Below are positions 59,105 through 59,220 of a stretch of DNA of 64,000 nt, piece by piece. The stretch is taken from NCBI GenBank assembly GCA_963740085.1, contig CAVUCU010000007.1, forward strand, positions 160,001-224,000, read 5' to 3'. The notes under the pieces were generated by a model that searched no databases, had not been told where the DNA came from, and saw only the letters and a list, made by a program, of their open reading frames with translations. Numbering within the stretch: the first letter of the stretch is position 1; each line of letters starts with the position of its first letter. The position numbers and the translations under genes were made by a program. The DNA comes from Nitrospirota bacterium (lineage in GTDB: Bacteria; Nitrospirota; UBA9217).

Positions 59105-59220
59105 GTCATTCTCCTTTTCCCGCCATATTTTTTCTGCTTGCTTCCCGAAGAACGCGGCTGTCTAAAAGCCTCGAAAGCTTTCCGAAAGTTTTTACCGACA
59201 ATTTTACTATTCACGTATAT
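59105..59220 (-). promoter_or_regulatory. Conserved structured 5' leader of nifH
   Basis: Core AACTTTCGGAAAGCTTTCGAGGCTTT; collinear with 45703-45817. Confidence 0.55.

What the first reader, a model, noticed from the sequence alone, without database searches (positions are those of the whole stretch)
59105..59220. Candidate new cis-regulatory RNA: the same structured leader heads nifH and the porin-amt3-glnK operon
Seen: the two regions between sigma54 box and start codon are 116 nt (59105-59220) and 115 nt (45703-45817). By hand they align collinearly with a single 1-nt gap at about 63/116 identity. The core AACUUUCG(G)AAAGCU-N5-GGCUUU starts 31 nt from the promoter box in both, and an AAGCAG block ends 30 nt from the start codon in both. 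The inner hairpin GAAAGCU/GGCUUUY keeps its stem but varies its loop (UUCGA vs CCGGA). An enclosing helix shows compensatory change (UUGUC/GACAG vs UUGAU/AUCAG). The 5' CUUUC can compete for GAAAG, giving two alternative folds. The amt1, amt2 and nifB leaders lack it. Knowledge: it does not match the glnA glutamine riboswitch core, Moco RNA or ANTAR twin hexaloops as I recall them. Inference: it is a post-transcriptional nitrogen switch or protein-binding RNA that couples nitrogenase expression to high-affinity ammonium uptake.
Basis: partly seen in the sequence, partly recalled or inferred. Interest (0 to 1): 0.8.

Follow-up and report, generated by a model that had tools for sequence, protein, structure and literature searches.

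The report
Conserved leader hairpin on nitrogen-starvation mRNAs
A 19-base RNA hairpin with an almost fixed sequence sits in the untranslated leaders of ammonium-uptake operons, and in a few genomes of the nitrogenase gene, in one uncultured lineage of Nitrospirota bacteria. It matches no described RNA family and looks like a docking site for an unknown regulator.

Summary
The sequence observation holds. Both leaders (59105-59220 and 45703-45817, minus strand) follow sigma54-type boxes. They share a 7-bp stem with a 5-nt loop, called HP1 here: nifH copy 59164-59182, porin copy 45762-45780.

HP1 is conserved, not a local duplication. A covariance model finds a sigma54-linked copy in 38 of 64 genomes of the family, in 11 of 19 genera. 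In this collection the family is also the whole order and class. On 47 distinct sequences, 97.3% of stem cells pair. The changes are G.U wobbles, U.G-to-U-A and C-G-to-U-A swaps, and one inserted base pair. The antisense strand would pair only 77.7%, so HP1 acts as RNA, not as a DNA operator.

There is no Rfam match. ANTAR and CsrA proteins were not found in the genome.

The enclosing helix pairs at shuffle level. The competing 5' CUUUC is not conserved. HP1's usual home is the leader of outer-membrane-protein-amt(-glnK) operons. nifH carries it in only 3 genomes of one genus, with variable loops.

Function is inferred, not shown. The most likely reading is a sequence-specific binding site for an unidentified factor that controls mRNA stability or translation.

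The parts
59221..59236 (-). sigma54-type -24/-12 box of nifH (TGGCAC-N5-TTGCT)
59105..59220 (-). nifH 5' leader, 116 nt (the finding's coordinates)
59164..59182 (-). HP1, nifH copy: GAAAGCU / UUCGA / GGCUUUU, 7 pairs of which 2 are G.U
58262..59104 (-). nifH (Fer4_NifH, E = 3e-129)
45818..45833 (-). sigma54-type box of the porin-amt-glnK operon (TGGCAT-N5-TTGCA)
45703..45817 (-). porin 5' leader, 115 nt
45762..45780 (-). HP1, porin copy: GAAAGCU / CCGGA / GGCUUUC. This is the family consensus, found in 19 of 48 aligned instances.
45731..45751 (-). HP2, second leader hairpin CCUGC...GCAGG. It pairs in 73% of cells across relatives, with a U-A to C-G swap.
45708..45712 (-). Shine-Dalgarno GGAGG of the porin gene
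44560..45702 (-). outer-membrane beta-barrel porin (BBP2/OmpL-like, E = 6e-78)
42874..44559 (-). ammonium transporter gene (amt3) read in several frames with stops; apparent frameshifts
42535..42873 (-). glnK (P-II)

Best explanation
HP1 is a cis-acting RNA stem-loop of 7 bp (8 bp in one clade) with a pentaloop. Its consensus is GAAAGCU-CCGGA-GGCUUUC. It is transcribed about 27-48 nt downstream of sigma54 promoters, presumably activated by an NtrC-type regulator. It lies in the long 5' UTRs of nitrogen-limitation operons of one class-level Nitrospirota lineage. These are chiefly outer-membrane-protein-amt(-glnK) operons, and nifH in part of one genus.

Shown:
- The hairpin is real and lineage-wide.
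- It is strand-specific and keeps pairing through wobble and compensatory changes.
- Both its stem and its loop sequence are held far more constant than the flanks or the neighbouring hairpin HP2.

Inferred: because the sequence is conserved as well as the pairing, HP1 is most likely the recognition site of a sequence-specific trans-acting factor. That factor is probably a protein (an RNA-binding regulator or a ribonuclease), and it would set the stability and/or translation of these mRNAs after sigma54-dependent initiation. HP1 is not a metabolite-binding riboswitch, and it is not a self-contained switch that sequesters the Shine-Dalgarno sequence.
For: Occurrence and context:
- HP1 occurs twice in the genome, both times behind sigma54 boxes.
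- An unbiased pattern (sigma54 box, 20-50 nt, GAAAG-N9-CTTT) gives 24 matches in 22 of 64 family genomes and 0 for the reversed control pattern. 23 of the 24 N9 segments keep both upper pairs.
- Of 42 loose-pattern hits, 21 had a sigma54 box 24-51 nt upstream. Of these, 15 stood before the porin, 1 before nifH and 3 before a 250-aa OMP; 2 contigs ended too early to tell. The other 21 had no box.
- Covariance model R1 finds a match in 38 of 64 genomes. I checked a sigma54-linked copy in each of them.

Structure:
- On 47 distinct sequences, 97.3% of 329 cells pair. The same structure slid by 1-3 columns gives 31.6-73.6%. 11 cells changed on both sides against 2.7 in shuffles, and 0 of 500 shuffles reached the observed value.
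- RNAalifold run on 39 whole leaders predicts HP1 and nothing else.
- There are 16 distinct 19-mers. 12 pair 7/7 on the sense strand, but only 2 do so on the antisense strand. In total that is 327/336 against 261/336 pairs.

Lineage and known families:
- Outside the family there are 5 unrelated-looking pattern hits in 337 genomes of the phylum.
- There are 0 model hits in 96 loci with distant porin homologues from other phyla.
- There is no Rfam family and no paper holding the sequence.
Against: - No binding factor was identified, and there is no expression or TSS data for this leader. The two RNA runs found do not cover it.
- The sequences are related by descent, so the shuffle statistics overstate independence. 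Most variation is one-sided (wobble).
- Only about 6 independent pair-preserving events are seen, against 4 degenerate copies: G004, L174/L176, G048 (one mismatch) and G008 nifH.
- The nifH copies have differing loops (UUCGA, CCGGA, CGUGA), and the hairpin was lost in G046. Loop-specific recognition there is therefore doubtful.
- The near-invariant sequence could partly reflect recent common ancestry or spread of a promoter-leader module.
Confidence: 0.45

Rival explanations
1. Passive structural element. HP1, together with HP0 and HP2, only shapes or protects the long 5' UTR, for example as a barrier to 5' exonucleolytic or RNase E decay or as a folding insulator. It would work like the stabilising hairpins of the ompA leader and need no dedicated partner. 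Its sequence constancy would reflect shared ancestry.
For: - The downstream genes are an abundant outer-membrane protein and NifH, with long leaders.
- Neighbouring hairpins HP0 and HP2 exist in most leaders.
- The nifH copies tolerate different loops.
Against: - HP1 is internal (about +27 to +48), not 5'-terminal.
- Its stem and loop are nearly invariant across 11 genera, while HP2 and the flanks vary freely.
Confidence: 0.2
2. Translational switch. HP1 is built from the organism's own Shine-Dalgarno and anti-Shine-Dalgarno words: GAAAG..GGAGG and CUCC..CUUUC. The 16S 3' end reads ..CACCUCCUUUCU.. When HP1 opens, its pyrimidine blocks would pair with the purine-rich ribosome-binding site and shut off translation.
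For: - The 16S tail was read.
- In several leaders the MFE fold pairs CUCC/CUUUC with the RBS.
- Some RBS blocks copy lineage-specific versions of the 5' arm: L015, L178, L181.
Against: - Complementarity of the 3' arm to the RBS is at background. 17% of the 46 leaders show 7/7 pairing, against 19% of 681 strong-SD gene starts of the same genome.
- Blocking the 5' arm lowers predicted SD accessibility by more than 0.3 in only 7 of 46 leaders, and in neither window leader.
Confidence: 0.1
3. Co-transcriptional element. HP1 would be a nascent-RNA hairpin at a nearly fixed distance from the start site. It would pause RNA polymerase or load an antitermination factor, in the manner of boxB or put RNAs or leaders dependent on a NusG paralogue.
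For: - The distance from the -12 box to HP1 is 36-42 nt in 39 of 46 leaders, tighter than the distance to the ATG.
- The operons are long (nifHDK...; OMP-amt-glnK).
Against: - There is no terminator-like site in either leader.
- The only NusG paralogue of the genome lies beside a ParA/BY-kinase-like gene, far from the nitrogen genes.
- The leaders are purine-rich and C-poor, so they are poor Rho substrates (inference).
Confidence: 0.1
4. Double-stranded DNA operator. A dimeric repressor or activator would bind the inverted repeat GAAAGC-N7-GCTTTC, or its CTCCGGAG core, downstream of the promoter.
For: - The consensus is a near-palindrome, and G007 and L015 carry perfect ones.
- The position relative to the promoter is fairly constant.
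Against: - The variants break DNA symmetry but keep RNA pairs: 66 G.U cells, and the antisense strand pairs only 77.7%.
- One clade lengthens each arm by 1 nt, which changes half-site spacing by 2 bp.
- G007, L172, L178 and the nifH copies destroy the CTCCGGAG palindrome while improving or keeping the stem.
- The site is single, and it is absent from the other sigma54 promoters of the locus.
Confidence: 0.08
5. Metabolite-sensing riboswitch for glutamine, 2-oxoglutarate or ammonium.
For: The genomic context is nitrogen-regulated genes.
Against: - The only conserved structure is a 19-nt hairpin with no junction, internal loop or pseudoknot partner.
- No Rfam riboswitch matches even at E <= 10.
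Confidence: 0.03

Closest known systems
GnfR (ANTAR) leader elements of Geobacter sulfurreducens nitrogen-fixation genes (PMC2995071; passages read)
   Same: RpoN-dependent promoters of nitrogen-fixation and assimilation genes are followed by a conserved leader RNA sequence. That sequence adds a post-initiation control layer to a two-component EBP system.
   Different: - The Geobacter leaders carry terminators and the conserved sequence CAGGCAANGGCGCC, bound by an ANTAR response regulator.
- Here there is no terminator, the sequence is different and the loop has 5 nt.
- No ANTAR gene was found in 9 of 9 genomes of the genus, although the same search finds ANTAR in 5 of 21 genomes.
CsrA/RsmA-binding hairpins (GGA in the loop; features recalled)
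   Same: A short leader hairpin presents GGA in its loop (CCGGA or UCGGA), with a second GGA in the Shine-Dalgarno sequence.
   Different: - No CsrA gene was found in the 98.5%-complete genome, although the control rang in 3 of 14 genomes.
- The stem sequence is conserved too.
- The nifH loops UUCGA and CGUGA lack GGA.
Stabilising 5'-UTR hairpins of outer-membrane-protein mRNAs such as E. coli ompA (recalled)
   Same: A long, structured leader of about 110-130 nt stands before an abundant outer-membrane protein gene.
   Different: HP1 is internal, is sequence-conserved across genera and is shared with nifH. ompA-type hairpins act by position at the 5' end, not by sequence.
Phage lambda boxB-type antitermination hairpins (recalled)
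   Same: A small stem with a pentaloop, early in the transcript, at a set distance from the promoter.
   Different: There is no phage context, no boxA-like partner was tested, no terminators lie downstream and no candidate binding protein is known.
Glutamine riboswitches (glnA RNA, Downstream-peptide motif) in Rfam
   Same: They are associated with nitrogen-metabolism genes.
   Different: No match even at E <= 10. Those are multi-helix aptamers, whereas HP1 is a single hairpin.

Membership tests
ANTAR-target RNA | Two hairpins, each with a hexanucleotide loop (conserved A at position 1 and G at position 4; recalled definition) | tested here: not met
   HP1 has a 5-nt loop in 15 of the 16 distinct forms; the 16th is a copy with a deletion. 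HP2 loops are 3-11 nt and variable.
ANTAR-target RNA | The second hairpin overlaps an intrinsic terminator or the RBS | tested here: not met
   No terminator-like site in 45600-45950 or 59000-59350.
ANTAR-target RNA | An ANTAR-domain protein is encoded in the genome | tested here: not met
   PF03861 was found in 0 of 9 genomes of the genus, including G000. It was found in 5 of 21 genomes searched, so the search works.
Any Rfam 15 family (including glnA RNA, Downstream-peptide, Moco RNA) | Covariance-model score at or above the gathering threshold | tested here: not met
   0 hits in the window at gathering threshold. The best sub-threshold hits score 9.5-14.8 bits, against thresholds of 41.8-60.
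CsrA-regulated leader | A CsrA protein is present | tested here: not met
   PF02599 was not found in G000. The control was positive in 3 of 14 genomes.
Transcription attenuator | A G+C-rich hairpin followed by a U-run in the leader | tested here: not met
   The U residues of HP1 are inside the stem.
Palindromic dsDNA operator | Symmetry kept on both strands and fixed half-site spacing among orthologues | tested here: not met
   Antisense pairing is 261/336 against 327/336 for the sense strand. The clade with 8-bp arms changes the spacing.
Structured cis-regulatory RNA motif (generic) | A conserved helix with pair-preserving variation, strand-specific, at a fixed place in the 5' UTRs of functionally related genes | tested here: met
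SD-sequestering riboregulator | An alternative pairing with the RBS that is above background and changes SD accessibility | tested here: not met
   (7 of 46 leaders).
Protein-binding RNA operator | A specific binding partner | not testable with these tools
   No candidate was identified. An Hfq paralogue tested by co-occurrence is present in 60 of 64 genomes and so does not discriminate.

The most novel reading that the evidence does not exclude
HP1 is the RNA operator of a so-far unknown regulator that responds to nitrogen status, possibly one controlled by the many P-II proteins of the locus. This would add a post-transcriptional layer to the sigma54/NtrC regulon of these uncultured diazotrophic Nitrospirota. 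It would co-tune ammonium capture at the outer and inner membrane and, in one genus, nitrogenase synthesis.
Probability: 0.2. Interest if true: 0.7.

Novelty: new variant of a known kind. Interest (0 to 1): 0.45.

Why it matters
If HP1 is a regulatory RNA, it marks a lineage-specific post-transcriptional control point on the nitrogen-starvation regulon. The bacteria concerned are uncultured soil and sediment Nitrospirota that carry nitrogenase.

It also gives a compact handle of 19 nt for three purposes:
- fishing out the unknown partner;
- recognising nitrogen-limitation transcripts of this lineage in metatranscriptomes;
- defining which outer-membrane proteins belong to ammonium uptake, including a 250-aa protein family with no Pfam match that always precedes amt.

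If it proves to be only a stabilising hairpin, it is an ordinary leader feature of narrow interest.

Tried and rejected
- Enclosing helix UUGAU/AUCAG: 53.0% of cells paired against 51.3% in shuffles, with slid controls at 31-56%. Rejected.
- Upstream hairpin HP0 (GAAGUUG..CAACUUUC): 67% paired, better than slid controls (30-49%) but not better than shuffles. Left open.
- Upstream ORF after HP1: an ATG within 25 nt in only 18 of 46 leaders, with no common frame or stop. Rejected.

Alternative mechanisms:
- SD/anti-SD switch. Complementarity is at background level, and only 7 of 46 leaders respond in silico.
- Trans RNA partner: no other locus within 3 mismatches of the 19-mer on either strand, apart from three sites inside apparent coding sequence.
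- NusG paralogue: it lies in an unrelated cluster.
- Hfq paralogue (tandem genes on contig C3): present in 60 of 64 genomes and in all 19 genera, so it has no association with HP1.

Expression data:
- Two metatranscriptome runs held 5% of the sampled words. When laid on the window they covered parts of nifH/nifD, mostly at under 95% likeness, so they come from other organisms.
- Nothing was covered beyond 59141, so they say nothing about the leader.

Searches that added nothing:
- The class-level and order-level genome searches returned the same 64 genomes as the family search.
- Literature: searches found no description of this motif.

Full report
WHAT IS THERE

All relevant genes lie on the minus strand.
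- nifH (58262-59104) is followed by nifD, nifK, a nifEN fusion, nifX and nifB, together with P-II genes.
- About 13 kb further along lies an operon of a BBP2/OmpL-like porin (44560-45702), an ammonium transporter and glnK (42535-42873).
- An NtrB/NtrC-like pair, a PAS histidine kinase and a sigma54-activating response regulator, lies at 30956-33587.
- Titles of the closest porin loci name Nitrospirota MAGs.

The window holds four strict sigma54-type boxes, against 0.16 expected. They stand before amt1, amt2, the porin and nifH. nifB has a looser box. Only the porin and nifH boxes are followed by long leaders (115 and 116 nt). Only these two carry the shared core.

CHECKING THE OBSERVATION

- The core occurs twice in the window (0 of 100 shuffles reached one match) and twice in the 3.46-Mb genome.
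- The two leaders align above chance, mainly because of the core. They share 70 identities, while 1000 shuffles gave 57.6 +/- 3.9.
- Folding puts the hairpin GAAAGCU-loop-GGCUUUY (HP1) into the MFE and centroid structures of both leaders. The whole leaders are not unusually stable, with positive z-scores.
- Rfam gives nothing at gathering thresholds, and only noise at E <= 10.

IS IT CONSERVED?

An unbiased pattern leaves the top of the stem and the loop free: sigma54 box, 20-50 nt, GAAAG-N9-CTTT.
- It gives 24 matches in 22 of 64 genomes of the family. The reversed control pattern gives none.
- 23 of the 24 N9 segments keep both upper pairs.
- Order and class in this collection are the same 64 genomes.
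- In 337 further genomes of the phylum there are 5 hits with unrelated N9 segments.

A looser pattern without the box gave 42 rows that I examined.
- 21 rows had a sigma54 box 24-51 nt upstream. These stood before the porin (15), nifH (1) or a 250-aa outer-membrane protein (3). In 2 the contig ended too early to tell.
- The other 21 rows had no box. By eye, only 2 of these pair at both free positions, and both are unrelated sites.

A covariance model built from 35 instances found matches in 38 of 64 genomes, in 11 of 19 genera. For each of the 38 I saw a copy behind a sigma54 box.

Porin homologues from metagenomes added further variants. Among the porin leaders with a sigma54 box that I read, roughly four in five carry HP1. 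Four distinct leaders do not (L014/L173, L171, L179/L180, L185).

Ninety-six loci with distant porin homologues from other phyla have no match.

RNA OR DNA?

- On 48 aligned instances (47 distinct), 97.3% of 329 stem cells pair. Slid controls give 31.6-73.6%. 11 cells changed on both sides, against 2.7 in shuffles; 0 of 500 shuffles reached the observed value.
- RNAalifold, run on 39 whole leaders without any hint, predicts exactly this helix and no other.
- There are 16 distinct 19-mers. 12 pair 7/7 on the sense strand, and only 2 do so on the antisense strand. In total that is 327/336 against 261/336 pairs.
- The changes are of the kind an RNA helix tolerates:
  - A-to-G giving G.U (GAAGG, 11 instances; GGAAG, 1 instance);
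  - C-to-U giving U.G;
  - U.G to U-A;
  - C-G plus U.G changed to U-A plus U-A (L015 and G008);
  - one extra G.U pair in a whole clade (GAAAGGCU/GGUCUUUC: G001, G020, G021, G023, L181).
- The same changes destroy the DNA palindrome and alter half-site spacing.
- Counter-examples exist. G004 has a broken 3' arm, L174/L176 have a deletion, G048 has one mismatch and the G008 nifH copy is degenerate.
- The sequences are kin, so the shuffle figures overstate independence.

WHERE IT LIVES

The regular home is the leader of [outer-membrane protein]-amt(-glnK) operons.
- The outer-membrane protein is either the BBP2 porin or a 250-aa protein with no Pfam match. The latter is directly followed by an Amt-like ORF.
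- These operons often lie about 13-15 kb from nifH, as they do here (coordinates).

nifH is a minority host.
- 36 of 64 genomes have nifH.
- Of 30 upstream regions fetched, 25 have leaders of about 35-50 nt. Only this genome's leader shows HP1.
- Two more nifH-linked copies occur in the same genus: G048 with loop CCGGA and one mismatch, and G049 with loop CGUGA.
- G046 has a NifH protein identical to this one. It keeps only the 5' arm and loop in its nifH leader but has a perfect HP1 before its porin.
- So the coupling of nitrogenase to ammonium uptake through this element is, at best, a trait of one genus.

WHAT FAILS

- The enclosing helix is at shuffle level.
- The 5' CUUUC lies 0-1 nt from GAAAG, so it cannot form a hairpin with it. 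It is present in about 10 of the 48 aligned rows. Where it is present, it more plausibly closes an upstream hairpin with a conserved GGAAGUUG block at the transcript's start. That hairpin has only weak comparative support.
- There is no conserved upstream ORF.
- There is no terminator.

MECHANISM

One fact stands out. HP1's stem and loop sequences are almost frozen across 11 genera, while the flanks and the second hairpin HP2 vary. HP2 pairs in 73% of cells and shows U-A to C-G swaps. Pairing alone does not need that much constancy, so I infer sequence-specific recognition by a trans factor.

Known candidates were tested.
- ANTAR proteins were not found in all 9 genomes of the genus. The same search finds them in 5 of 21 genomes, two of which belong to genera without HP1.
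- CsrA was not found.
- The only NusG paralogue lies in an unrelated cluster.
- An Hfq paralogue is ubiquitous in the family.
- No antisense partner exists at up to 3 mismatches.

A curious point remains. HP1 is made of the organism's extended Shine-Dalgarno and anti-Shine-Dalgarno words. The 16S 3' end reads ..CACCUCCUUUCU... This suggested a switch that masks the ribosome-binding site. Two tests went against it:
- complementarity to the RBS equals that of 681 ordinary strong-SD genes;
- constrained folding changes SD accessibility in only 7 of 46 leaders.

I therefore commit, at moderate confidence, to a protein-recognised leader hairpin that governs mRNA stability or translation. The rivals are a passive stabiliser, a co-transcriptional element and a residual SD-mimic switch. 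The hairpin is far too small to be a riboswitch by itself.

COMPARISON AND NOVELTY

The nearest described system is the Geobacter GnfR antitermination layer on RpoN-dependent nif genes (PMC2995071; I read the passages returned by a term search). The logic is similar: a conserved leader RNA behind sigma54 promoters. The parts are different: there is no terminator, no ANTAR protein was found and the sequence differs.

No paper in the searchable library holds the motif sequence. The topic searches (listings only) found nothing on it.

I rate it a new variant of a known kind, a lineage-restricted cis-acting leader hairpin. It is of moderate interest until a partner or an effect is shown.

Noticed in passing
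window 56716-58189 (-) and 42874-44559 (-): nifD is split into two overlapping ORFs (57491-58189 and 56716-57639). The amt gene between the porin and glnK reads in several frames with stops. These are either frameshift errors of the assembly or pseudogenes.
   Followed up: partly
window 51534-54170 (-): An 878-aa ORF with two nitrogenase component-1 domains. It appears to be a fused NifE-NifN.
   Followed up: no
window 39477-51000: Five P-II family genes lie within about 12 kb. One is a 150-aa form (41501-41953) and one a 138-aa form (50021-50437) with extensions. There are three amt genes, each behind its own sigma54-type box or in the porin operon.
   Followed up: partly
L124:1580-2323, L256:1590-2336 and relatives: A roughly 250-aa signal-peptide protein with no Pfam match stands directly before amt and behind HP1 in many genomes of the family. 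It is a candidate new outer-membrane ammonium or ammonia channel family.
   Followed up: partly
loci L069-L073 (G046, G009, G002, G030, G033): NifH is 99-100% identical in protein sequence between genomes assigned to different genera, while their nifH leaders differ (short against long). This may hint at lateral transfer of nifH or of the nif cluster.
   Followed up: no
G000:C3:109463-110043 (L292): Two adjacent Hfq-like genes exist besides the canonical hfq. The second, with a long C-terminal tail, is conserved in 60 of 64 genomes of the family.
   Followed up: partly
leaders aligned in A4, columns 13-30 (window about 45795-45810): A conserved block GCAAGGAAGUUG lies at the predicted transcript start of most OMP-amt leaders. 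Its function is unknown.
   Followed up: partly
L088 (G016) and G058: Two genera without HP1 (g9, g15) carry ANTAR-domain genes. G016 has a long, different nifH leader, possibly a GnfR-like system in the same family.
   Followed up: no
L014/L173: A porin leader behind a sigma54 box lacks HP1. It has a different small hairpin (GUGC-UUC-GCAC) at a comparable place.
   Followed up: no
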